A stretch of DNA of 56,791 nt from Candidatus Zixiibacteriota bacterium (GTDB lineage Bacteria; RBG-13-66-14; B26-G2; WVWN01). The notes under the pieces were generated by a model. It was given only the letters and a program-made list of their open reading frames with translations. It was not told the origin of the DNA and ran no database searches. Positions 11,838 to 56,778 of this stretch are shown one piece after another. The first letter of the stretch is position 1; each line of letters starts with the position of its first letter. Position numbers and translations under genes: made by a program. The DNA lies in assembly GCA_011773985.1 (NCBI GenBank), contig WVWN01000003.1, forward strand, positions 2,898-59,688. Direction: 5' to 3'.

Positions 11838-12227
11838 TTACGCGGGAGGGCCGTGGCCGCATCCGCACGACGGGTCGGCTTCGGCCAATTCGCCGCGCGC
11901 GAACTTGGCGGCGACGTCGTCCAGGTATTCTTCGGCGGTGAAAACAACCCGCACTCCCGACGAGGCGCACGCGTCGGCCGCCCGCGGCCCCATTCCCCGG
12001 CAAATTAAAACCTCGACGCCGGCCAGCCCCTCGCCGAAGTCGTGGGTTTGGTCCGCGCCGCGCCCCGCGGCTGGGCCGCGGGTGCCGCCGTGGTGGACGT
12101 GGACGTTGGGCCGGTACACGACGAACTCGGCCCCGCGCGCGGCCGCCTCGTAAACGGCGAATTCGGCGGCCCGGCCAAAGTGCGCGGCGAGGCTTTTGCG
12201 GTCGTCGGTGGGCATCGCGATCTTCAT
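11838..12227 (-). CDS. NifB/NifX family (FeMo-cofactor-binding fold) protein
   Basis: MKIAMPTDD...HFGRA..F...LICRGMGPRA; start moved to ATG 12227. Confidence 0.9.
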   Translation of the reverse strand: MKIAMPTDDRKSLAAHFGRAAEFAVYEAAARGAEFVVYRPNVHVHHGGTRGPAAGRGADQTHDFGEGLAGVEVLICRGMGPRAADACASSGVRVVFTAEEYLDDVAAKFARGELAEADPSCGCGHGPPA

Positions 12228-12264
12228 AACGAGCACCCCCGCGTCGTACACCTCGGCCGTTGGG

Positions 12265-12468
12265 TTATTGTTTTTTGGGTTTTTGGCTCGCGCGGCGGCC
12301 CCGGCCGGGACGCCCCGGCGCCGGGCCACATCCCTCCGGCGGGCCGCCCGCGTCCACGCGGTGGAGGAGGCCCCCGCACTCCGGGCACTTCATGTCCCGG
12401 CCCGTGCCCCCGGTACCGTGGGGAACCTCGAACTCGTAGCCGCACGCCGCACATTTGAACTTCCGCAC
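12265..12468 (-). CDS. Small zinc-ribbon protein
   Basis: CAACGYEFEV...CPECG two CxxC pairs; SD GGAGG before GTG. Confidence 0.75.
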   Translation of the reverse strand: MRKFKCAACGYEFEVPHGTGGTGRDMKCPECGGLLHRVDAGGPPEGCGPAPGRPGRGRRASQKPKKQ

Positions 12469-12486
12469 AGTATACCTCCGCGGGCG

Positions 12487-12873
12487 TTAGGTCCGGTACT
12501 CCTTGCGAAACCGACACGTCCTACAAACCTCGCGGCCTCGCCGACAGCAGGCGCGTATCCTCTCCCAACAAGGCCCCGGGCCGCGGCGCGCCGGACACGC
12601 CTTTCGTTCCTCCGCGCTGCACCCGCGGATCTCCCAGCAACCCTCGTAGTTGAGAAGGCGCACGAGCGCGGGAAGGCTGATCTTCGCGCCGTGGACGATA
12701 TCCCTGAGACATCGGAGCCAGGCGAGGTCGGCGGCCGAGTAGTACCGACGGCCGCGCCGCCGAGAAGGTTCGACAAGGCCGGCTTGTTCGTAGAGGCGAA
12801 GCGTGCGCGGGTGAACGCCCAGCGCGTCGGCGGCGACGCCGATGGGTACCGACTCGATCTCTATATTCGCCAT
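12487..12873 (-). CDS. MerR/HspR-like regulator with Cys-rich C-terminus
   Basis: IGVAADALGVHPRTLRLYEQAGLVEP HTH; CWE...C...CP...CWE...CC...CxxC tail. Confidence 0.9.
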   Translation of the reverse strand: MANIEIESVPIGVAADALGVHPRTLRLYEQAGLVEPSRRRGRRYYSAADLAWLRCLRDIVHGAKISLPALVRLLNYEGCWEIRGCSAEERKACPARRGPGPCWERIRACCRRGREVCRTCRFRKEYRT

Positions 12874-30627: not shown

Positions 30628-31401
30628 TTATATTAAAATAACCCCCATCACCAGCAACGCTACGAACGGCGCGACGCCGGCGCCTACGGTCCCCGGGTGG
30701 AAGTCCGGCCCGAAGCCCGAGGCGAATAGGCCGTGGCCCTCGACGCCCAACGATACGTAGTTCCCGGCGACCATTCCCCCCACGCAGGCGACGACTACTA
30801 GTATTAAGCCGAGCGCGAAGGTCCGCGGCCTGCGGGGCGCTACGTCCAACACGTCCGGGTAGAGGAGGCCCAGCCGCCGGACGCGCTTGTCGAGCGCCTT
30901 GAGTAGGAGCGGCCCCAATACCACCGTGAAGATGACGTTGTTCACGACGATGATGTTCGCCAGCGCGGCGAAGGGCGCCTGGCCCAGCAGGTCTATCCCC
31001 CAGCCGATGAATAGGCCGCACGCTAAGGCGGCGAGAATTATAGCCGCCTCCATAAGTAATAAGCGCCGCCAGTTGGAAAGGTATTCCGCGGCGCCGGCGC
31101 GGACGATGCGGTAGGGGATGTACGCCAACAGGAAGTTGCCGCCGAGGCCGAAGAGGCTACCCCATCCCAGCGTCCCCGAGAAGTCCCCCAGCAGGTTCCC
31201 TAGGGCCGAGCCGACGGCGCCCGCGGGGCCGAAGAGCAGGCCCGCGACGAAAGGGATGGCTCGCCCGGGCGAGGTCTCCGTCAGGCCGGGTATGAGCGTG
31301 AGCGGTTTGAACGGTATGAGCAGCGCCGCGTACACCGCCGCGGTCACGGCCGCCAGGACGACCATCCGCGTGTTCTCCCACATCCTCGCGACTTCGCGCA
31401 C
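30628..31401 (-). CDS. queT: QueT-family ECF transporter S component
   Basis: MWENTRMVVL...YAALLIPFK...IPGLTE..PG...GLLFGPAGAVGSALGNLLGD. Confidence 0.8.
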   Translation of the reverse strand: MREVARMWENTRMVVLAAVTAAVYAALLIPFKPLTLIPGLTETSPGRAIPFVAGLLFGPAGAVGSALGNLLGDFSGTLGWGSLFGLGGNFLLAYIPYRIVRAGAAEYLSNWRRLLLMEAAIILAALACGLFIGWGIDLLGQAPFAALANIIVVNNVIFTVVLGPLLLKALDKRVRRLGLLYPDVLDVAPRRPRTFALGLILVVVACVGGMVAGNYVSLGVEGHGLFASGFGPDFHPGTVGAGVAPFVALLVMGVILI

Positions 31402-31405
31402 GGCC

Positions 31406-32092
31406 TCACCTCGTAAGCTCGTAGATGCGGAGCGATACGGGGGTATCCTTCAGGTCGTTGAGCGGCTCGATTTCGACGTAGTATTTCCCGGCTAAGGATG
31501 CCTCGTCGAATATCACGGCCTTGCCCTCGTCGCCCAGATCCCGCAAAGCGTAGCGCACGTCCGCGGGCAGCGGCTTGACGACGGCGTACGCGTCGTACGG
31601 GTTTATGACGTTGGCCTCCAGACAGTCGCCCCCGCACGATATAACGTACGTCGTCCCCGGCGCCGGCTTAATGTCGTATTTGCCCTTCTCGCCCGCTTTG
31701 ATCGTAATCTGGGCGGAATCGAGGAGCGTAAGCTTAGGGGGCGGCGCGGTAGACTTAGGCTTCTCGCCGGCGAGCGCGCGTACTATCGTCGCGGCCGTTT
31801 CGGCGCGGACGATGCCGGAAACCGGCAGGCCCCAATCCCGCTGGAACGCCTTGACCGCGGCCTCCGTCGCCGGCCCGAAGATGCCGTCCGTGCGGCCGAA
31901 CCCCTCGAGGTAATCGCCGTATCCGATGTTGTAAAGGTCGTTTTGGAGGAGCGTCACGTAGTCGGCGGCGAAGTCGCTGTCGCGGGCGCCGAACTTCAGC
32001 GTATTGTCGCCGTAGCGGTTGACGGCGAAGGCCGCGGCGGAGAGCGCCAACGCGGCCGCAACGACGGTTGCAACCTTAGCGGATTTAGACAT
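31406..32092 (-). CDS. Secreted peptidoglycan-binding domain protein
   Basis: Signal peptide; V..LQ..L...GY...DGIFGPATEAAVKAFQRDWGLPVSGIV. Confidence 0.88.
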   Translation of the reverse strand: MSKSAKVATVVAAALALSAAAFAVNRYGDNTLKFGARDSDFAADYVTLLQNDLYNIGYGDYLEGFGRTDGIFGPATEAAVKAFQRDWGLPVSGIVRAETAATIVRALAGEKPKSTAPPPKLTLLDSAQITIKAGEKGKYDIKPAPGTTYVISCGGDCLEANVINPYDAYAVVKPLPADVRYALRDLGDEGKAVIFDEASLAGKYYVEIEPLNDLKDTPVSLRIYELTR

Positions 32093-40235: not shown

Positions 40236-41063
40236 TCAATCGTTTGCGTCGTCGGCCTTCTCCACCACGCTGCCCGCCCGGTAGCCGTCGAGGTCGAGGG
40301 CCACGAATTTGAAGCCTAGTTCGTGAAGTTTGGCCGTAACGCGCGCCCTTGCTGCCGCTTGGGCCGCGCGGGGTATCTCTTTCGCGTCGAGTTCGATTCG
40401 CGCGCACGGCCCGTAGTAACGGCAGCGTATCTGGTGAAAACCCAAGTCGGCCAGCGTTTGTTCCGCCTCCTCGACGATTTTCAATTTTTCGGTTGTTATC
40501 ACTTCGCCGGTCGGGAAGCGGGAGGCCAGGCACGCCGATTGCGGCCGGTCGAAGTTGGGCACGCCGTTGTCTCGCGCCAACGACCGGACCTCCTCTTTAG
40601 TTAGGTTTACTTCGGCCAAGGGCGATATTATTCCCAACTCGCGCGCGGCCCTCGCCCCCGGGCGATGGCCCTCGAGTTCGTCGGCGGTCGTGCCGTCGGC
40701 GACGGCGGCGATGCGCTCCTGTTCCGCCAGTTGTCTAAGTTCCGCGAAGAGTATTTTTTTACAATAATAACACCGGTCGGGCGGATTGGCGAGGAAGGTG
40801 GCGTCCTCGGTCTCGGACGAGTCGATGAATATTTGTTCCGCGGCGAGTATGCGGGCCGTGGCTTCCGCGTGTTCGGCCTCGCGGGCCGCGAACGCCGGGG
40901 ACCGCGCGGTCGCCGCCAGCACGCGGCCGGGGACCGCTTTTTGCGCGCTCGCGAGCAGAAACGTCGAGTCGGCGCCCCCGGAGAAGGCGACGAGGAGCGA
41001 AGGCAACTTCCCGAGGCGGGCCAGGAGTAGTTCGTATTTTCTTTCCGCGGGGGACTGCTTCAC
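40236..41063 (-). CDS. larE: ATP-dependent sulfur transferase LarE
   Basis: AFSGGADS PP-loop, RCYYCK, RPG, SPL, ACLASRFP. Confidence 0.95.
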   Translation of the reverse strand: MKQSPAERKYELLLARLGKLPSLLVAFSGGADSTFLLASAQKAVPGRVLAATARSPAFAAREAEHAEATARILAAEQIFIDSSETEDATFLANPPDRCYYCKKILFAELRQLAEQERIAAVADGTTADELEGHRPGARAARELGIISPLAEVNLTKEEVRSLARDNGVPNFDRPQSACLASRFPTGEVITTEKLKIVEEAEQTLADLGFHQIRCRYYGPCARIELDAKEIPRAAQAAARARVTAKLHELGFKFVALDLDGYRAGSVVEKADDAND

Positions 41064-42133
41064 GCCGCGACCTCGTCGATTACGCCGCCTCCGAGCAGGA
41101 CGTCGCCCTCGTAGAAAGCGGCGGATTGGCCGGGCGCTATCGCGCGCCGCGGCTCGTCGAAAGTTACGGCCCAGCGTCCTTCGCCCGTTCGGCGCAGCGT
41201 CGCGGCCGCGCCCCGGTCGCGGTATCGGACCGCTACCGTCGCCCGAATTTCGTCCGCGGCCGGCGGGGCCAACCAGTTTGCTCGGTCCACGTCGAACCGG
41301 CTCGAGGTCAAGGCCGGCCCCTCCGCGAGCACTACCGTGTTCGTCGACGCGTCTATTTTTTTGACGTACATGCGCGTGCCGCGAGCGACGCCCAGGCCGC
41401 GGCGCTGGCCTACGGTATAGCGCGTCAGGCCGGCGTGGCGCCCCAAAACGCGACCCTCTTCGTCGACGATGGGCCCGGCTCGGCCGCCTTCGCCCGCGGC
41501 CTTCTCGACGTAGTCGGCGTAGGGGCCGTCTTCGACGAAACAGACGTCCTGGCTCTCCGGTTTATCGAAGGCGACCGCCGTTACTTCGCCGAGAAGGGCC
41601 CTCACCTCCATTTTCCGGAGGGAACCGAGGGGGAACCGAATTTGGGCGAGACCTTCGCGCGGCGTCCCCCAAAGGAAGTACGACTGGTCCTTCGCGGCGT
41701 CGGCGGCGCGCCGGAGTATGAAAGACGAGCGCGCGTCGTCGTACTCGCGTATGACGTAGTGGCCTGTCGCGAGCGCGTCGAAGCCCATGGCCCGGGCCCG
41801 GCGCAGCAAGTATTCGAACTTGATAACGCTGTTGCAGCGGACGCACGGGTTGGGTGTCCGGCCGCGGGTGTATTCGGCGACGAAGTCGTCCACGACGGCC
41901 CGCCGGAATTCCTCCCGGTAATCGAAGACGTAGTGGGGGATGCCGATGCTCCTCGCCAAAGCCGCGGCCTCCTTTACTGCCGAAGGGGAGCAGCACGACC
42001 GTCCGGACCGTCGCTGCGAATCGTACAGGCGCAACGTCACGCCGACGGCGTCGTATCCCGCTCGCGCGAGTATTAACGCCGCCGCGGCGCTATCGACGCC
42101 GCCCGACATGGCTACTAATATCTTTGAGGCCAT
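41060..42133 (-). CDS. mnmA: tRNA 2-thiouridine synthase
   Basis: MSGGVDS, TPNPCVRCN, ATGHY, KDQSYFL, ESQDVCF, TVGQRRG, PGQSAAFY. Confidence 0.97.
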   Translation of the reverse strand: MASKILVAMSGGVDSAAAALILARAGYDAVGVTLRLYDSQRRSGRSCCSPSAVKEAAALARSIGIPHYVFDYREEFRRAVVDDFVAEYTRGRTPNPCVRCNSVIKFEYLLRRARAMGFDALATGHYVIREYDDARSSFILRRAADAAKDQSYFLWGTPREGLAQIRFPLGSLRKMEVRALLGEVTAVAFDKPESQDVCFVEDGPYADYVEKAAGEGGRAGPIVDEEGRVLGRHAGLTRYTVGQRRGLGVARGTRMYVKKIDASTNTVVLAEGPALTSSRFDVDRANWLAPPAADEIRATVAVRYRDRGAAATLRRTGEGRWAVTFDEPRRAIAPGQSAAFYEGDVLLGGGVIDEVAA

Positions 42134-51628: not shown

Positions 51629-52360
51629 TTAGCCGTAGCCGGCGACGTGCCGGCCGTCCTTTGCGGCGAGCGCCATTTTGAGTTCTTCGAAGGTCGGCGC
51701 CGCGAGCTCGAAGACCGTGAAGGCCGCGCCGACGTCGTTAGGGCGATGCGCGTCCGACGCGCGGATGACGGCGTACCCGCAATCGGCGTAGTCCTCGGCC
51801 TTGCCGTACGGCGAGAGCTCGACGGCGTCGAAGACGCCGGGCGGTATGAAGCCGAGCTGGCTTGTGCAGCTGAAGGCGGGCCGGTCGACGTGGCTCGCGA
51901 CGGCGAGGCCGCCGTAGCGGTGTACGTAATCTACGGTCGTGCCGACGTCCATGTCGGTGGCGCCGAGGAGCAGTCGTTCGTTCATGCCGAGGACGTTCTC
52001 GTGCTCGTCGACGATCACCTGGTAGCCGAAGCGCCGCGGGTCGTTCTCGCCTTCCTGCAGCCGCTGGTACACCTTGCCTTGCATCTCGCCCGCGTCGGCC
52101 AGCGTCGCGAAGAGCGCGAGGACGTGGACCTCCTCCGCGGTCGTGACTTCCATACCGGGTATGACGGTGATGCCGGCCCTTTCCCCGAGGCGTACGGCGG
52201 GGCGGGCGTTTTCGGAGGCGTTGTGGTCGGCGATGCCGACGAGGGTGAGGCCGCGCCTTCGGGCGGCTTGGACGATTCGCCGCGGCGATTGGCTCAGGTC
52301 GCCGCAGGGTGAAAGGACTGTGTGGATATGAAGGTCGGCGCGGAAGGTTCGCAGCGTCAG
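51629..52360 (-). CDS. PHP-domain phosphoesterase; probable CTG start
   Basis: In-frame extension upstream of the tracked ORF gives ADLHIHTVLSPCGD...ADHN...GMEVTTAEEVH; SDAH at the C-terminus. Confidence 0.88.
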   Translation of the reverse strand: MTLRTFRADLHIHTVLSPCGDLSQSPRRIVQAARRRGLTLVGIADHNASENARPAVRLGERAGITVIPGMEVTTAEEVHVLALFATLADAGEMQGKVYQRLQEGENDPRRFGYQVIVDEHENVLGMNERLLLGATDMDVGTTVDYVHRYGGLAVASHVDRPAFSCTSQLGFIPPGVFDAVELSPYGKAEDYADCGYAVIRASDAHRPNDVGAAFTVFELAAPTFEELKMALAAKDGRHVAGYG

Positions 52361-52704
52361 CGTTCTTTCCCCCTAAGCCCCATCTTATAAAGTCGTCCCA
52401 CGAGTTCGAAGCTGTTTTCTTCGGAGAGCAGAACGGTTACCCCTTCCTCCTCGGCCTTGGCGATGGTTTCGGCCGCGGGCTTCTTGCCGCTCGTGATTAC
52501 CACGCCCGCGAGGTCGTTCAACGAGCAGACGGCGACGACGTTGATGTGGGTCTGGATGGTAACCCAAAGGGCGCCCTCGCCCGCGTTGGCCATGACGTCG
52601 GAGAGCAGGTCCGAGACGTAACCGCCTTTGACGTCGCCGTCGACGCCTCCCGCGGCGGAGGCCACTTCGAGCCCGAGCTTGTCGATTATCTTCTTTAGTT
52701 CCAT
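52357..52704 (-). CDS. DRTGG-domain protein
   Basis: Start MELKKII; GGYVSDLLSDVM, WVTIQTH. Confidence 0.92.
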   Translation of the reverse strand: MELKKIIDKLGLEVASAAGGVDGDVKGGYVSDLLSDVMANAGEGALWVTIQTHINVVAVCSLNDLAGVVITSGKKPAAETIAKAEEEGVTVLLSEENSFELVGRLYKMGLRGKER

Positions 52705-52712
52705 CGTTGACC

Positions 52713-54083
52713 TTACTTCCTTGGGTTTTTGAGCGTGGGCGGCAGCTGCTCGGAGAGCGACCCCATCTCCCTGGCAAGTTCCTGGAGCCGCTCCCGCAAC
52801 TTGAAGGTGCAATCCGTCATCTGCGATTTACCGAGTACGACGTCCTCCGCGAAGGCCCGGCAGGTCGGCGCGCCGCAGGAGCCGCAATCGATGCGGGGCA
52901 GCGAGGCGACGATGGATTCCAGTTTGTTCATCAGGGATATCGTTTCGGATATGTCGGTTCCCAGTTGAAGCGTCGGCCTCGGCCTCAGCGGCGTCTTAAG
53001 GTCGAACGCCCCCCCTTCTATAAGTTCCGTTATCTCTCCGTACGTGAGGTCGGGCGGCCGCCCCTCCTCGATGCCGAACTTTTCGCTGCGGGCCGCGCGC
53101 AGTTCGTCGATGCGGTTTTTCGCGACGAACGGGTCCTCGACCGTCAGCGGCCCGCCGACGCAGCCGCCCGTGCACGCCCGAAGCTCCAGATAATCGTAGC
53201 CGTGGTGGTATTCGTCGCTCTCGACCAGCTCTAATACGCGAACGACGTTGGCGATGCCGTCCACGGCGAGGCGGCGGCCCTTGCCGATCAACGTGTTCTC
53301 TCCCCCCGCGGCTCCCCACCCGAGCGAGAGCCCCGACGCCCGGGCGATGCCCGGCACGACCTCTATTCTCTCGAGGTTACTCATTATCCGGTTGAAGACG
53401 TCGGAGATCGCGATGGCGCCGTCCACGTGCGTATTGCCCGCGGCTTCGGGCTGCTTGACCGCGGTGGCCTTGGCCGAGCAAGGCGTTATGAAGAAGACGC
53501 CTATCTCCTCCGGCGGTATGCCGAGGTGGCGGCTCCGGCTCTCTTTGACCACGCGGGCCGCGGCGTCCATCGGTGCCTCGACGGGGATTATGTGGGCGAG
53601 CAGCGACGGGAAGCGCACCAGGATTAGGCGGACGATGGCCGGGCAAAGCGAGGAGATGACGGGTTTGGGGTGCCTCTCGTCCTTCAGGTAGTTCCGCGTC
53701 GCGAGGGTCACGATTTCGCCGCCTAGCGCCGCTTCGTAAACCTCGTCGAACCCCAGGTAAATAAATCCGGAGAGGACCTTGTCGAGGGGGATGGAAGTCT
53801 TGAATTGGCCCGCGGCCGCGGACGACGGCAAGGCCACCGAGTATTTGAAACGCTTTATGGCCTCGAGCGGGTCCGTCTGGGCGTACTTCGCGTGCGTGGG
53901 GCATATGCTGATGCAGACGCCGCAGTCGATGCAGCGGACCGGGTTGATCTCGGCCTTGCCGCCCCGGACCCTTATGGCCTCCGTCGGGCACTCGCGGACG
54001 CAGTGCGTGCAGGCAATGCACCTCTCCTCCGCCAGCCTGACGGAGTGGTAGTATTCGCCTATCTTTGTGTCTTCGTCGTTCAT
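52713..54083 (-). CDS. [FeFe]-hydrogenase-like Fe-S protein (HfsB-like, putatively sensory/non-catalytic)
   Basis: N-terminal 2x[4Fe-4S]; degenerate H-cluster motifs ISSLCP, ITPCSAK, ELRACTGGCVGG; C-terminal LPRIDCGSCGAPTC domain. Confidence 0.85.
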   Translation of the reverse strand: MNDEDTKIGEYYHSVRLAEERCIACTHCVRECPTEAIRVRGGKAEINPVRCIDCGVCISICPTHAKYAQTDPLEAIKRFKYSVALPSSAAAGQFKTSIPLDKVLSGFIYLGFDEVYEAALGGEIVTLATRNYLKDERHPKPVISSLCPAIVRLILVRFPSLLAHIIPVEAPMDAAARVVKESRSRHLGIPPEEIGVFFITPCSAKATAVKQPEAAGNTHVDGAIAISDVFNRIMSNLERIEVVPGIARASGLSLGWGAAGGENTLIGKGRRLAVDGIANVVRVLELVESDEYHHGYDYLELRACTGGCVGGPLTVEDPFVAKNRIDELRAARSEKFGIEEGRPPDLTYGEITELIEGGAFDLKTPLRPRPTLQLGTDISETISLMNKLESIVASLPRIDCGSCGAPTCRAFAEDVVLGKSQMTDCTFKLRERLQELAREMGSLSEQLPPTLKNPRK

Positions 54084-54221: not shown

Positions 54222-54246
54222 AAAAGGCGGCCCGGAGGCCGCCTTC
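54222..54246 (-). terminator. Terminator after hydrogenase large subunit
   Basis: AAGGCGGCC-TCC-GGGCCGCCTTTT on the minus strand. Confidence 0.7.
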
Positions 54247-54265: not shown

Positions 54266-55732
54266 TTAGCAGTTCCGCTTGACGGTGCGACGGAGGGTGC
54301 CGTCGGCGTCGTATATCTCGAGCTCGAGGGGCATCTTGCCGGGGAGGGCGTGCGTCGCGCAGGCCATGCACGGGTCGTACGCGCGGAACGCCATCTCCAC
54401 CATGTTGAGCTTGCCCTCGTCGACGTCGCCGCCCTTGATGACGCCCTTGGCGGCGTTGCGGACGGCGAGGTTGATGCCGGCGTAGTTGTGCGTCGTCGCG
54501 ACGATGAGGTTGACCGCGGTGACGATGCCGTTCTCGTCGGTGTCGTAGTCGTGGATGAGGTGGCCGCGCGCGGCCTCGATGGTCCCGACGCCCCGCGACG
54601 GCTTCTCGGTCGGAATGTTGCGCACGTGCTCGTCGAGGATTTCGTCTTCCTGCATGTACTGGAGCCACAGCTCGGCGCCCTGACACCCCTCAATGATGCG
54701 CGCCCAGTGGTACGCCAGCGACGCGTGCACCGGCTTGCCGCCCAGCGTCTCGTACATCTTCTCGAACTCGGCCTGCGCGAGCGGCGTCTGCATCCCCTCG
54801 GAGGCGTTGAGCCGCCCGAGCGGGCCGCCGCGGTAGATGCCGGACTCCTTGCCCGTAACCCAACCCTGCCAGCCGACGTTCTTCAGGTACGTCACCTTGA
54901 GGTAGGTCCACGGCTCGACGCGCTCCGCGAGGTGCTCGAGGTAGTCGAGGCCTTTGTACTTGGCGAACTCGTCGCCGTCGGGGTCGACGATGCGCGTCCA
55001 GCCGTCGTAGAAGTCGACCTTGTTGGCGTCGTTGACCAGGCCGATGTAATACGTCTGCTGGCCGCCGTATATTTCGGAGAGGACGAGGTCGACGTACTCT
55101 TTATTTTTTAGGACGACGTCCTCGAATATCTGAAAGGTAAATTTGGAGAACTCGACCGCCTCCTCGGCGTGTTTGCGCATCTCGTCGCGCGTCTCGGCGT
55201 CCAGCGGCCGGCTGATGCCGCCGGGGAGGGCGATGATGGGGTGGGTGCGCTTGCCGCCGAAGTACTTGAGTACGTCGATGGACTTGGCGCGCATTTCGAT
55301 GACCTTGGCGCCGACCTCGAGGCCCACCTTGCCGACGACGCCGAGGATGTTGCGTTCGGCCGGGCTCGCGGTAGGCCCGACGACGAAGTCCGGCGCCGCG
55401 AGGTAGTAGAAGTGCAACAGGTGGTCGTAGAAGTAGTACGAGTTGTATATCATCCGCCGGAGTCTCTCGCCGTTGGGCGGCAGCTCGACCTTGTAGACCG
55501 CGTCACATGCCTTCGCGCCTGCGAAGTGGTGGACGAGCGGTCAAACGCCGCAGATGCGCGGCGTAATCCGCGGGAGCTCCTCCACCGGCCGGCCCACGCA
55601 GAACTGCTCGAAGCCGCGCAGCTCCGGAATCTGCAGGTACGCCTCGGCGACGTCGCCGCCGTCGTCCAGGAAGATGGCGATCTTGCCGTGCCCTTCGAGG
55701 CGAGAGATGGGGTCGATCTCGATTTTCTTCAT
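54266..55732 (-). CDS. mvhA: [NiFe(Se)] hydrogenase large subunit, MvhA-type, 488 aa with in-frame UGA (codon 64)
   Basis: ORFs 55541-55732 and 54266-55453 are joined in frame by 29 open codons; SRLEGHG, RICGV(U)PLVHH L1 motif, [10 protein letters not shown]2 motif plus C-terminal extension. Confidence 0.9.
55496..55542 (-). promoter_or_regulatory. Putative bacterial SECIS hairpin
   Basis: Apical stem CTTCGC-AGGC-GCGAAG with the loop starting 20 nt after UGA; lower stems GACCG/CGGTC and CGTC/GACG. Confidence 0.7.
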
Positions 55733-55797: not shown

Positions 55798-56778
55798 CTA
55801 TTCGTCGCCGTCTTTGCGCTCGCCGCGCTGGACGCCGAGCATCGACCTCGCGAGGCCGAAGCGGTAGAAGTAGCCGGCGGGGTCGTCGAGTTTGTCCAAA
55901 ATTTTATCGGCCTCCGCTTGCGTGTCCGCGATGACGATGGAGGCGATGGCGGAGGCGAGCTTCGCGCCCATGTCGTTCACGTTGTCGGTGGGGCCGAAGC
56001 AGCCGCGGCAGGCCTGCCCCGCTACGACGCAAGCTGCCTCGCAGCCGTCCCGCGTTGCCGGCCCGCAACACATTATGCCCTGCTCAAGGAGACACTTCTC
56101 CGGGTCGTTCTCGACGAGGTGGATGCGTTTAAATTCGGTAACCTGCTTCTCCTCCGACCGCTCGCGCGGGCACTCGTCGCACACGGCCTTCGTTCCGGCG
56201 ATGACGGTCCCTTTGGGCGGCAGCTCCCCCTTCGCCACCGCCTCCACCGCGGCTACGATCCACTTCACCTGCGGCGGACACCCCGGGAGGTAGTAATCGA
56301 CGTCGACGACCTGGTCGAGGGCGTACGCACGGTCCATCGCGCGCGGCAGCGTCAGCTCGCCCTCCGGCGCGTCGTATTTGAGTTGCGGCCGAGTCCCGTC
56401 CGGGTTAACGACCGAGGGGACGGTGTCGTACATCCGGTGCGCGAGTTCCTCCGTCGTCCAGAAGTTGCCCAGCGAGGGGATGCCGCCCATCTGGGCGCAG
56501 GCGCCGAAGGACACCAAGACTTGGCTCTTCCGCCGCATCTGCTTGGCGTGGTGGACGTCGTGGTCGTTGCGGACGGCGCCGTTGAAGAAGCCCACGGTGA
56601 TGCCGCCGTCCGGGATGGCCTCCAGGTCCTTATCCTTGAAGTCGAGCGCCGTAGGCCAATAGACGATGTCGGCCAGCTCCGCGACTTTGAGAATTACCTC
56701 GTCGATGTCGACGACGGCTATCTCGCAACCGCCGCAGCTCGCGGAGGGCATGAACGCGAACTTGAATTTCTCAGGCAT
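55798..56778 (-). CDS. mvhG: [NiFe] hydrogenase small subunit, MvhG-type
   Basis: ASCGGCE, FGACA..GG, LPGCPP, VCDEC, CLLEQG..CCGP.TR.GC...C....CRGCFGP. Confidence 0.92.

What the first reader, a model, noticed from the sequence alone, without database searches (positions are those of the whole stretch)
54266..55732. Probable selenocysteine at the N-terminal bridging ligand of a [NiFe] hydrogenase
Seen: in-frame TGA (55541-55543) exactly at the second Cys of RxCGxC, open frame on both sides, a SECIS-like hairpin immediately downstream, and GCA/TGT codons in that hairpin that are unusual for this GC3-rich gene. The L2 motif is ordinary DPCMAC. Knowledge: characterised [NiFeSe] enzymes have Sec at the first Cys of the C-terminal motif (terminal Ni ligand), whereas the second L1 Cys bridges Ni and Fe. 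Inference: a different kind of NiFeSe active site that gene callers would split into two ORFs. I cannot check whether it has been reported.
Basis: partly seen in the sequence, partly recalled or inferred. Interest (0 to 1): 0.78.

Follow-up and report, generated by a model that had tools for sequence, protein, structure and literature searches.

The report
Selenocysteine bridging ligand in Mvh-type hydrogenase
A [NiFe] hydrogenase gene of an uncultured sediment bacterium encodes selenocysteine (an in-frame UGA) at the cysteine that bridges nickel and iron, a rare position already noted in print, and gene callers routinely split such genes in two.

Summary
On the minus strand, window 54266-55732 is one 488-codon frame. 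Its only internal stop is TGA at 55541-55543, at the second Cys of R-I-C-G-V-[U]-P-L-V-H-H. The C-terminal motif is an ordinary DPCMAC.

It is a selenocysteine codon, not a broken gene:
- The genome has selA, selB, a selD that itself carries an in-frame TGA, and a single tRNA-Sec.
- The same TGA stands at the same codon in all 15 distinct orthologous sequences of the clade (12 of 13 genomes of one order).
- A hairpin (6-bp stem, loop AGGY) lies 14 nt downstream in 15 of 15 Sec forms and in 0 of 42 Cys forms.
- Both halves are under purifying selection.
- More distant homologs carry TGC or TGT.
- One relative has a tandem Cys paralog nested inside the Sec clade.

The enzyme is Mvh-type (group 3c-like). 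It sits in an operon with MvhG, an MvhD that also has an in-frame TGA, and HdrA-, NuoE- and NuoF/NfnB-like subunits.

The feature is wider than this clade. Of the best 120 short public proteins, 96 end exactly after RxCGx. A separate Dehalococcoidia clade has the same TGA with a different hairpin.

N-terminal CXXU sites are already in print: three sequences in 2011, and Group 4 in 2026. I therefore rate this a new member of a known but uncharacterised kind.

The parts
54266..55732 (-). Full read-through CDS of the [NiFe] hydrogenase large subunit (MvhA-like, 488 codons, Sec at codon 64)
   Evidence: PF00374 scores 121 bits against a cut-off of 25.8. Best NCBIfam match is VhuA. Best solved relatives are 7t2r_D and 5odc_F, E 2.5e-106.
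55541..55543 (-). UGA codon 64, predicted selenocysteine at the second (Ni-Fe bridging) Cys of the N-terminal RxCGxC motif
   Evidence: The same codon is TGA in 15 of 15 distinct clade sequences and TGC/TGT in 42 distinct homologs. It aligns to the second Cys of the corresponding N-terminal motif of 7t2r_D.
55550..55552 (-). TGC codon 61, first (terminal) Cys of the N-terminal motif
   Evidence: invariant TGC.
55496..55542 (-). SECIS-like stem-loop: lower stem, internal loops, upper stem. The upper hairpin CUUCGC-AGGC-GCGAAG is at 55511-55526, 14 nt after the UGA.
   Evidence: Fold of -23.7 kcal/mol, z = -3.28. The upper hairpin is present in 15 of 15 distinct Sec forms and 0 of 42 Cys forms. 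The loop has G at position 2, which meets the criterion quoted from PMC13582414. The selD and mvhD UGAs of the same genome have hairpins whose loops also begin AGG at a similar distance.
54359..54370 (-). C-terminal Ni-binding motif C-M-A-C (codons 455-458, both Cys coded TGC), followed by T-H and a 27-residue C-terminal extension
55798..56778 (-). Hydrogenase small subunit (MvhG/VhuG-like, 326 aa), directly upstream in the same operon
   Evidence: PF01058 at 83.5 bits. NF045875 VhuG at 216 bits, below its equivalog cut-off.

Best explanation
The gene is one intact selenoprotein gene. During translation, SelB with Sec-tRNA(Sec) binds the hairpin that starts 14 nt after UGA-64 and inserts selenocysteine instead of terminating. 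This gives a 488-residue large subunit of a cytoplasmic Mvh-type (group 3c-like) [NiFe] hydrogenase. In the mature enzyme, Sec64 takes the place of the second Cys of the N-terminal RxCGxC motif, so a selenolate rather than a thiolate bridges Ni and Fe. The other three ligands (Cys61, Cys455, Cys458) stay sulfur.

The subunit works with MvhG and a Sec-containing MvhD. These are encoded beside HdrA-like, NuoE-like and NuoF/NfnB-like subunits, so the complex probably links H2 to NAD(P)H and ferredoxin in an electron-bifurcating arrangement.

Shown here: the codon, its conservation, the hairpin, the machinery, purifying selection and the operon.
Inferred: that Se is actually inserted, that it bridges the metals, the partner chemistry, and any catalytic benefit.
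For: 1. Machinery in the same genome. selA scores 403 bits, selB 325 bits, and selD 217 bits with its own in-frame TGA. tRNA-Sec scores 64 bits in Rfam, and ARAGORN calls it SeC with anticodon tca. It is the only UCA-anticodon tRNA among 49.

2. TGA is otherwise a normal stop: it ends 440 of 1731 frames of at least 300 codons.

3. Recurrence. 12 of 13 genomes of the order carry the ortholog with exactly 1 TGA. These are the window's own genome, 8 of its genus, 1 of a sister genus, and 2 of a second family, at 76-94% identity. The 13th genome, 84% complete, gave no match. In 78 aligned rows from genomes and metagenomes, 26 have TGA at codon 64 (15 distinct sequences), 50 have TGC or TGT, and 2 were partial.

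4. Hairpin. CTTCGC-AGG[CT]-GCGAAG lies 14 nt after the TGA in 15 of 15 distinct Sec forms and 0 of 42 Cys forms. Within the stem the synonymous sites are invariant; the only variable site is the fourth loop base.

5. Selection. dN/dS for codons 1-63 is 0.03-0.12 at dS 0.33-1.55 over the 7 pairs. For codons 65-488 it is 0.13-0.15 in the three gap-free pairs within the family. If UGA were a stop, codons 65-93 would be untranslated, yet they are conserved.

6. Phylogeny. The Sec clade has 100/100 support. A tandem TGC paralog in one relative is nested inside it and has lost the hairpin.

7. A use for the enzyme. hypD, hypF and a maturation protease are present. This is the only locus above the PF00374 cut-off in the genome.

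8. Compatibility. An engineered E. coli Hyd-1 C79U, with Sec at the equivalent residue, kept 13% of native activity, the most of the four Sec variants (PMC8020662, passages read).

9. Independent recurrence. A Dehalococcoidia clade has TGA at the same codon in 7 of 7 loci checked, with a different hairpin.
Against: - There is no protein-level evidence: no Se labelling, mass spectrometry or structure.
- The upper stem is invariant, so there is no compensatory covariation.
- In the second family of the order only the 6-bp upper hairpin survives, and that stretch does not fold better than shuffles (z = 0.21).
- No Rfam family matched the region.
- The dip in synonymous change around the TGA (0.085-0.13 against 0.267 overall) is only about the fifth lowest of the 12-codon windows. 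Windows at codons 392 and 320 are lower.
- One TGA-type genome (G010, 87% complete) gave no selA match, as did one TGA-type Dehalococcoidia genome (G273). selA is also present in Cys-type lineages, so co-occurrence does not discriminate strongly.
- The engineered C79U variant lost 87% of activity and was almost inactive at 10% O2, so no obvious benefit is known.
- ARAGORN might miss an unusual UGA-decoding tRNA that inserts Cys.
Confidence: 0.88

Rival explanations
1. Nonsense mutation or pseudogene: the TGA terminates translation and the hydrogenase is dead.
For: Under table 11 the gene is split into 63-aa and 395-aa ORFs. Public annotations treat it that way.
Against: The same TGA is kept in 15 of 15 distinct orthologs at 76-94% protein identity across two families. 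dN/dS is 0.03-0.15 on both sides of it. A hyp maturation cluster is kept, and this is the only locus above the PF00374 cut-off in the genome.
Confidence: 0.02
2. UGA-64 is decoded as cysteine or another standard residue, for example by a UGA-reading Cys tRNA of the tRNA-ReC type or by Sec-independent read-through. The site would then be an ordinary all-sulfur one.
For: Takano et al. 2026 raise this caveat for genomes that carry tRNA-ReC (PMC13582414, Discussion read). Nothing done here measures which residue is inserted.
Against: Only one UCA-anticodon tRNA was found among 49. Both Rfam (64 bits, cut-off 47) and ARAGORN type it as tRNA-Sec. A SelB-type hairpin with the loop G is conserved, and similar hairpins follow the UGAs of selD and mvhD. 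A TGC paralog exists and has lost the hairpin, which would be pointless if UGA already meant Cys.
Confidence: 0.05
3. A genuinely split large subunit: a 63-residue N-terminal peptide and a C-terminal protein made separately and assembled, as VhuA and VhuU are in Methanococcus voltae (recalled). Residue 64 would be missing.
For: Split large subunits exist in the family. NCBIfam has separate VhuA and VhuU models, and both match this protein.
Against: After the TGA, the first ATG, GTG or TTG in frame is at codon 94. Conserved residues 65-93, including PLVHH, would therefore be lost although they are under purifying selection. Ni would lack its fourth ligand. No ribosome-binding site or start codon is conserved after the TGA.
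Confidence: 0.03
4. Sequencing or assembly error at one base.
For: The window comes from a metagenome-assembled genome of 91 contigs, and I could not inspect raw reads (laid contigs only).
Against: The identical codon appears in independent assemblies from many records: 26 rows and 15 distinct sequences.
Confidence: 0.01

Closest known systems
CXXU-type (N-terminal Sec) [NiFeSe] hydrogenases predicted in silico: 27 Group 4 sequences in Takano et al. 2026 (PMC13582414), and two Group 1 plus one Group 3 sequences attributed there to Baltazar et al. 2011
   Same: UGA at the second Cys of the N-terminal CxxC motif, with Sec predicted to bridge Ni and Fe. A SECIS stem-loop lies within about 50 nt, with G at loop position 1 or 2. 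selABCD is present. Close relatives include both Sec and Cys forms, and genes are mis-annotated as truncated.
   Different: This enzyme is a cytoplasmic Mvh-type, group 3c-like hydrogenase, not a membrane-bound Group 4 complex. The clade is in an uncultured Coatesbacteria/Zixibacteria-labelled phylum that had no genomes in 2011 (my recollection), so it is probably not the single Group 3 sequence reported then. I could not read Baltazar 2011 to check. The hairpin sequence is its own.
Canonical [NiFeSe] hydrogenases: Desulfomicrobium baculatum and Desulfovibrio vulgaris Hys (Group 1), and Methanococcus Vhu and Fru (Group 3)
   Same: A [NiFe] hydrogenase large subunit with one Ni ligand encoded by UGA. 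Methanococcus Sec/Cys isoenzyme pairs (Vhu/Vhc, recalled) parallel the tandem Sec/Cys pair seen in relative G001. MvhD/VhuD is also a selenoprotein (review PMC13188914, table passage read).
   Different: In these enzymes Sec replaces the first, terminal Cys of the C-terminal motif (UxxC). Here the C-terminal motif is all-Cys (TGC at codons 455 and 458) and Sec is at the bridging N-terminal position. The NCBIfam NiFeSe models score far below their cut-offs: 170 against 600, and 156 against 780.
Engineered E. coli Hyd-1 C79U (Evans et al. 2021, PMC8020662)
   Same: Sec at the equivalent residue, the second Cys of the N-terminal motif. That variant was active: 13% of native rate, with a lower apparent KM for H2.
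   Different: It is an artificial substitution in an O2-tolerant Group 1d uptake enzyme, inserted at UAG through EF-Tu. The present case is a natural variant under purifying selection in a Group 3 enzyme of an anaerobe.
MvhADG-HdrABC (5odc) and the electron-bifurcating NiFe-HydABCSL of 7t2r
   Same: These hold the best solved relatives of the large subunit (E 2.5e-106). Neighbouring genes match HdrA (E 3e-121), the HydA/NuoG N-terminal FeS domain, HydB (7t2r_B, E 5e-178) and NuoE/HydC.
   Different: The subunits are combined differently: a NuoG-like FeS domain is fused to an HdrA core, and HydB is fused to an NfnB/GltD-like module. Both solved enzymes carry Cys at the position that is UGA here.

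Membership tests
[NiFe] hydrogenase large subunit, Mvh-type (group 3c-like) | Pfam PF00374 match above the gathering score | tested here: met
   121.4 bits against a cut-off of 25.8.
[NiFe] hydrogenase large subunit, Mvh-type (group 3c-like) | N-terminal RxCGxCxxxH and C-terminal DPCxxCxxH Ni-binding motifs | tested here: met
   RICGV[U]PLVHH, with UGA in place of the second Cys, and DPCMACATH.
[NiFe] hydrogenase large subunit, Mvh-type (group 3c-like) | Adjacent small subunit and MvhD partner | tested here: met
   A VhuG-like small subunit is directly upstream. An MvhD/FlpD-domain gene lies upstream of that, and it reads through its own TGA.
[NiFe] hydrogenase large subunit, Mvh-type (group 3c-like) | NCBIfam VhuA equivalog score (archaeal F420-non-reducing hydrogenase) | tested here: not met
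   387.7 bits against a cut-off of 800. VhuA is the best-matching model, but the protein is not an equivalog. I therefore write 'Mvh-type, group 3c-like'. A HydDB subgroup call was not possible with these tools.
[NiFe] hydrogenase large subunit, Mvh-type (group 3c-like) | Maturation system in the genome (Hyp proteins, endopeptidase) | tested here: met
   hypD 462 bits, hypF 799 bits and protease 116 bits, all on contig C55.
Canonical [NiFeSe] hydrogenase (Sec at the first Cys of the C-terminal motif) | UGA at the first Cys of DPUxxC | tested here: not met
   Codons 455 and 458 are both TGC. NF033181 scores 170 against 600 and NF045518 scores 156 against 780.
CXXU-type (N-terminal Sec) [NiFeSe] hydrogenase | In-frame UGA at the second Cys of the N-terminal CxxC motif, aligned to Cys in homologs | tested here: met
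CXXU-type (N-terminal Sec) [NiFeSe] hydrogenase | SECIS-like stem-loop within about 50 nt downstream, with G at apical-loop position 1 or 2 (criterion as stated in PMC13582414) | tested here: met
   The loop is AGGC or AGGU, starting 20 nt after the UGA codon, in 15 of 15 distinct Sec forms. bSECISearch itself was not available.
CXXU-type (N-terminal Sec) [NiFeSe] hydrogenase | selA, selB, selC and selD in the same genome | tested here: met
CXXU-type (N-terminal Sec) [NiFeSe] hydrogenase | Selenium actually incorporated and bridging Ni-Fe | not testable with these tools
   This needs 75Se labelling, mass spectrometry, or EXAFS or a structure. To my knowledge no natural enzyme of this kind has been characterised; Evans et al. 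2021 call the natural bridging examples 'purported'.

The most novel reading that the evidence does not exclude
N-terminal CXXU (bridging-selenolate) sites may be a widespread, repeatedly evolved and systematically mis-annotated class within cytoplasmic Mvh-type Group 3 [NiFe] hydrogenases of uncultured anaerobes. I found at least two separate origins, one in a Coatesbacteria-like order and one in Dehalococcoidia, and 96 distinct truncated N-terminal fragments among the best 120 short public proteins. In at least one organism a tandem Cys isoform shares the same small subunit, which suggests a selenium-dependent switch. A bridging Se would then be a natural way to tune the Ni-Fe site of electron-bifurcating hydrogenases, distinct from the terminal-Se solution studied so far.
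Probability: 0.5. Interest if true: 0.62.

Novelty: new member of a known kind. Interest (0 to 1): 0.5.

Why it matters
All biochemistry and structures of [NiFeSe] hydrogenases concern Sec as a terminal Ni ligand in the C-terminal motif. The bridging position has been tested only by engineering E. coli Hyd-1.

This clade offers a well-supported natural bridging-Sec enzyme, and one relative carries a natural Cys control isoform next to it. That makes the question "what does Se do in the bridge?" directly testable.

It also exposes an annotation problem. These genes are filed in public databases as a 63-aa "hypothetical protein" plus a truncated large subunit. Surveys of hydrogenase distribution and of selenoproteomes therefore miss or miscount them.

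Tried and rejected
- Rfam scan of the region: only chance-level matches (E 0.6-3.5) and no SECIS family. This says nothing either way.

- Covariation in the hairpin: not possible, because the upper stem is invariant in all 15 Sec forms.

- Synonymous-rate dip as proof of RNA structure: the dip is real but not unique. Windows at codons 392 and 320 are lower. I use it only as supporting evidence.

- dN/dS for codons 65-488 against the two sequences of the second family (L032, L033): the values of 0.32-0.49 come from an ungapped comparison that is probably out of register after indels. I discard them and keep only the three within-family pairs and the values for codons 1-63.

- Public runs: all four runs laid were contigs, not raw reads.
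  - Contigs of a second DNA study (X3 record 27) and of one RNA library (X20 record 13, about 93% alike) span the TGA place.
  - No difference at 55541-55543 is listed, but 98 differences were not shown. I therefore claim neither confirmation of the base nor transcription.
  - X2 contigs break next to the site. X21 did not cover it.

- Terminator after the gene: by eye there is a G+C-rich inverted repeat followed by TTTT at about 54222-54243 on the minus strand. The scan called no terminator, so I make no claim.

- Other long frames in the window with one TGA read through (MnmA-like at 40628-42133, plus 31157-32092 and 11838-12776): the TGA is the ordinary stop and the read-through tail is junk. 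They are not selenoproteins.

- The in-frame TAG reported in a Desulfobacterales homolog (G043/L066) is simply its real stop right after CATH.

- selA co-occurrence: consistent but weakly discriminating. selA was found in 23 of 25 genomes of the phylum, including Cys-type lineages. In Dehalococcoidia it was found in 7 of 8 TGA-type and 6 of 12 Cys-type genomes.

- Not done: structure prediction, fold search, complex prediction and the protein atlas. Sequence matches to solved structures at E 1e-106 already fix the fold and the aligned Cys.

- Not seen: supplementary files of Takano et al. 2026, which are closed. They may list SECIS details or sequences that bear on Group 3.

- Not held: Baltazar et al. 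2011. I know its content only through the citing sentences in PMC13582414 (N-terminal CXXU) and PMC8020662. The latter writes that the purported bridging substitution is at C579, the C-terminal bridging Cys, so the two citing papers disagree on the position.
Full report
**1. The observation**

On the minus strand, window 54266-55732 is a single 488-codon reading frame. It is interrupted once, by TGA at 55541-55543 (codon 64). The local sequence is ...[10 protein letters not shown]-[TGA][13 protein letters not shown]..., so the TGA replaces the second Cys of the N-terminal RxCGxCxxxH nickel-binding motif. The C-terminal motif is D-P-C-M-A-C-A-T-H, with both Cys coded TGC (codons 455 and 458).

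Under table 11 the gene falls into a 63-aa ORF and a 395-aa ORF. The first possible start codon of the second ORF is at codon 94.

The 52 nt that begin at the UGA fold into a lower stem, internal loops and an upper stem at -23.7 kcal/mol, z = -3.28.

The gene has GC3 = 0.92. Its only two GCA codons (71 and 75), one of two GTT (63) and one of two TGT (76) all sit at the hairpin or next to the TGA.

**2. Identity of the protein and its setting**

The read-through protein matches PF00374 (121 bits). Its best NCBIfam model is VhuA, below that model's equivalog cut-off.

Its best solved relatives, both at E 2.5e-106, are the large subunit of the NiFe hydrogenase in 7t2r and MvhA of 5odc. In the printed alignment, residue 64 aligns with the second Cys of the corresponding N-terminal motif of 7t2r_D.

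Directly upstream is a VhuG-like small subunit at 55798-56778. Beyond the window end, on the same contig, the following genes lie on the same strand:
- an MvhD gene whose FlpD domain breaks at its own in-frame TGA (...V-S-G-[U]-H-P-G-D-C-H-Y...);
- a 612-aa protein with a NuoG/HydA-type FeS domain fused to an HdrA core (E 3e-121 to HdrA chains);
- a 1059-aa fusion of HydB/NuoF with an NfnB/GltD-like module;
- a NuoE-like protein;
- an FAD protein and a CCG-domain protein.

This is an Mvh-type, group 3c-like cytoplasmic hydrogenase. It is embedded in what looks like a multi-flavin, probably electron-bifurcating complex; that last step is inference from subunit homology.

The genome has hypD, hypF and a maturation protease. 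No other locus scores above the PF00374 cut-off.

**3. Is UGA-64 selenocysteine?**

Machinery:
- selA, selB and selD are present, all above their curated cut-offs, and selD carries its own in-frame TGA.
- One tRNA-Sec is present at 64 bits, and ARAGORN types it SeC with anticodon tca.
- It is the only UCA-anticodon tRNA among the 49 tRNAs found.
- TGA is not generally a sense codon: it ends 440 of 1731 frames of at least 300 codons.

Recurrence:
- A six-frame search of relatives' genomes found the ortholog with exactly one TGA in 12 of the 13 genomes of the order. These are the window's own genome, 8 of 9 others in its genus, 1 of 1 in a sister genus, and 2 of 2 in a second family, at 76-94% identity. 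The missing genome is 84% complete.
- All homologs in the other classes of the phylum, at 61% identity or less, have no internal stop.
- I pooled genome and metagenome loci into 78 aligned rows. Of these, 26 have TGA at codon 64 (15 distinct sequences), 50 have TGC or TGT (42 distinct), and 2 were partial alignments.

Hairpin:
- The 16-nt hairpin CTTCGC-AGG[C/T]-GCGAAG lies exactly 14 nt after the TGA in 15 of 15 distinct Sec forms. It is found nowhere in the 42 Cys forms.
- Its stem codons (CAC TTC GCA ... GCG AAG) never vary, even at synonymous sites. The one variable position is the fourth loop base.
- The loop has G at position 2. This is the bacterial SECIS feature that Takano et al. 2026 found in 100% of their Sec-type hydrogenase genes (PMC13582414, section read).
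- In this genome the UGAs of selD and mvhD are also followed by hairpins whose apical loops begin A-G-G, 22-25 nt after the U of UGA.

Selection:
- dN/dS for codons 1-63 is 0.03-0.12, at dS 0.33-1.55 over the 7 pairs.
- For codons 65-488 it is 0.13-0.15 in the three gap-free pairs within the family.
- Both pieces are therefore maintained as coding sequence.

Weaknesses:
- There is no covariation and no Rfam hit.
- The dip in synonymous rate is not the lowest in the gene.
- In the second family only the upper hairpin remains, and that stretch does not fold better than shuffles.
- There is no protein-level evidence of any kind.

**4. Evolution**

In a maximum-likelihood tree of 48 large subunits, the Sec sequences form a clade with 100/100 support on a long stem.

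One relative (G001) has a second copy directly downstream of its Sec copy, in the order mvhD(Sec)-mvhG-mvhA(Sec)-mvhA(Cys). That copy has TGC at codon 64, is nested inside the Sec clade on a long branch, and has lost the hairpin: FAGAK has become YASSK. The same Cys form appears in a metagenome protein (P0002).

The simplest reading is one gain of Sec at the base of the order, followed later by a duplication and reversion that gave a Sec/Cys isoenzyme pair sharing one small subunit. This reading is an inference; I did not root the tree.

**5. The feature is much wider than this clade**

Of the best 28 full-length search hits, 27 are truncated to 371-410 aa.

Searching with the 63-aa N-terminal piece returned 334 short proteins. 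Of the best 120, 96 (all different sequences, 90 of them exactly 63 aa) end precisely after R-x-C-G-x. Of the other 24, 23 continue with Cys.

In an even sample of 401 Dehalococcoidia genomes, 94 have a homolog. Eleven matches in 9 genomes have one TGA; one of these is a short contig that is 89% identical to the window clade. In the 7 loci that I could read, the TGA is again at codon 64. It is followed by a different hairpin, a 6-bp stem with the GGCC core and loop CGUGUA or CGGGUA, coding M-A-S-C/G-K. Three further TGA matches were not checked for position.

Close Cys relatives in that clade keep a similar hairpin. Takano et al. noted the same for Group 4.

In a 56-row tree built without alignment columns 60-80, the two Sec groups are separated by Cys lineages. 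At least three changes of state are forced by well-supported branches.

**6. Comparison with what is known**

Takano et al. 2026 (PMC13582414; abstract, Introduction, Discussion and two Results/Methods sections read) state that Sec in Groups 1 and 3 is predominantly at the C-terminal UXXC. They describe 47 Group 4 sequences with Sec only in the N-terminal motif, 27 of them CXXU. They write that Baltazar et al. 2011 had reported two Group 1 sequences and one Group 3 sequence with an N-terminal CXXU in which Sec is predicted to bridge Ni and Fe.

Evans et al. 2021 (PMC8020662; abstract, Discussion and passages read) call natural bridging substitutions 'purported'. They show that engineered Hyd-1 C79U keeps 13% of native activity, has a lower KM for H2, and is not O2 tolerant.

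A 2026 review of prokaryotic selenoproteomes lists MvhA/VhuA/VhuU only with UxxC and says [NiFeSe] enzymes occur exclusively in sulfate reducers and methanogens (PMC13188914, passages read).

Four full-text searches found no paper that describes CXXU in Mvh-type enzymes of Coatesbacteria-like bacteria or Dehalococcoidia. The library lacks most subscription journals, and supplements were closed.

**7. Verdict**

This is a real selenoprotein gene (confidence 0.88) with Sec at the bridging N-terminal ligand of an Mvh-type [NiFe] hydrogenase.

The kind of site is already in print as an in-silico observation, so I rate it a new member of a known kind. It is still of moderate interest for four reasons:
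- it is very well supported;
- it is evidently widespread and has arisen repeatedly in Group 3;
- it is systematically mis-annotated;
- it comes with a natural Cys control isoform.

Interest: 0.5.

Noticed in passing
L052:802-1000 (- strand; G000 contig C49, just beyond the window end): The MvhD gene of the same operon has its own in-frame TGA (...VSG[U]HPGDCHY...), followed by a hairpin whose loop begins AGG. The operon therefore encodes two predicted selenoproteins. The MvhD ORF of relative G001 also needs one TGA read through.
   Followed up: partly
L059:3001-6144 (relative G001): Tandem large-subunit genes: a Sec form (TGA) is followed 207 bp later by a Cys form (TGC, 84% identical, hairpin lost). 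Both lie behind a single mvhD-mvhG pair. This looks like a Sec/Cys isoenzyme pair sharing one small subunit.
   Followed up: partly
L110-L113, L120, L130, L132 (Dehalococcoidia genomes G366, G354, G438, G329, G162, G414, G053): A second, separate clade of Mvh-type large subunits has TGA at the same codon with a different SECIS-like hairpin (a 6-bp stem with the GGCC core, loop CGUGUA or CGGGUA). G162 and G329 each have two TGA-type copies. Close Cys-type relatives (L118, L125) keep the same hairpin sequence.
   Followed up: partly
window 51629-54083 (- strand) and L052:9223-9723: Directly downstream of the hydrogenase genes lies a 456-aa [FeFe]-hydrogenase-like protein (Fe_hyd_lg_C plus PF04060 FeS domain, with Cys-containing H-cluster-like motifs). 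It is followed by a DRTGG-domain protein and a PHP-associated protein. A small HATPase_c protein lies upstream of the operon. The set resembles the putative H2-sensing regulatory modules found with sensory [FeFe] hydrogenases (resemblance recalled, not tested).
   Followed up: no
L052:1005-6065 (- strand): There are two unusual fusions. One is a 612-aa protein joining a NuoG/HydA-type [2Fe-2S]/[4Fe-4S] domain to an HdrA core. The other is a 1059-aa protein joining a HydB/NuoF module to an NfnB/GltD-like module. Together they suggest a novel arrangement of a bifurcating complex.
   Followed up: partly
L052:691-698 (G000 C49, 2-9 bases past the window end): A run of 8 N lies between mvhD and the small-subunit gene. 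It is a scaffold gap or withheld stretch, so the 3' end of mvhD is not readable.
   Followed up: no
G000 C43:73084-73961: selD is itself a selenoprotein gene (...TSAAG[U]AAKF...). Its match is reported in two pieces, 1-173 and 194-309 of the model, and the script translation of that stretch shows a run of X (N bases) near there.
   Followed up: no
L071 (G041:C178, 2.5-kb contig): A genome labelled Dehalococcoidia holds a short contig whose hydrogenase is 89% identical to the window clade, far closer than any other Dehalococcoidia homolog (60% or less). This is probably a mis-binned contig, or else a recent transfer. Record titles of the window's close relatives also disagree on phylum (Coatesbacteria, Zixiibacteriota, 'bacterium').
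   Followed up: no
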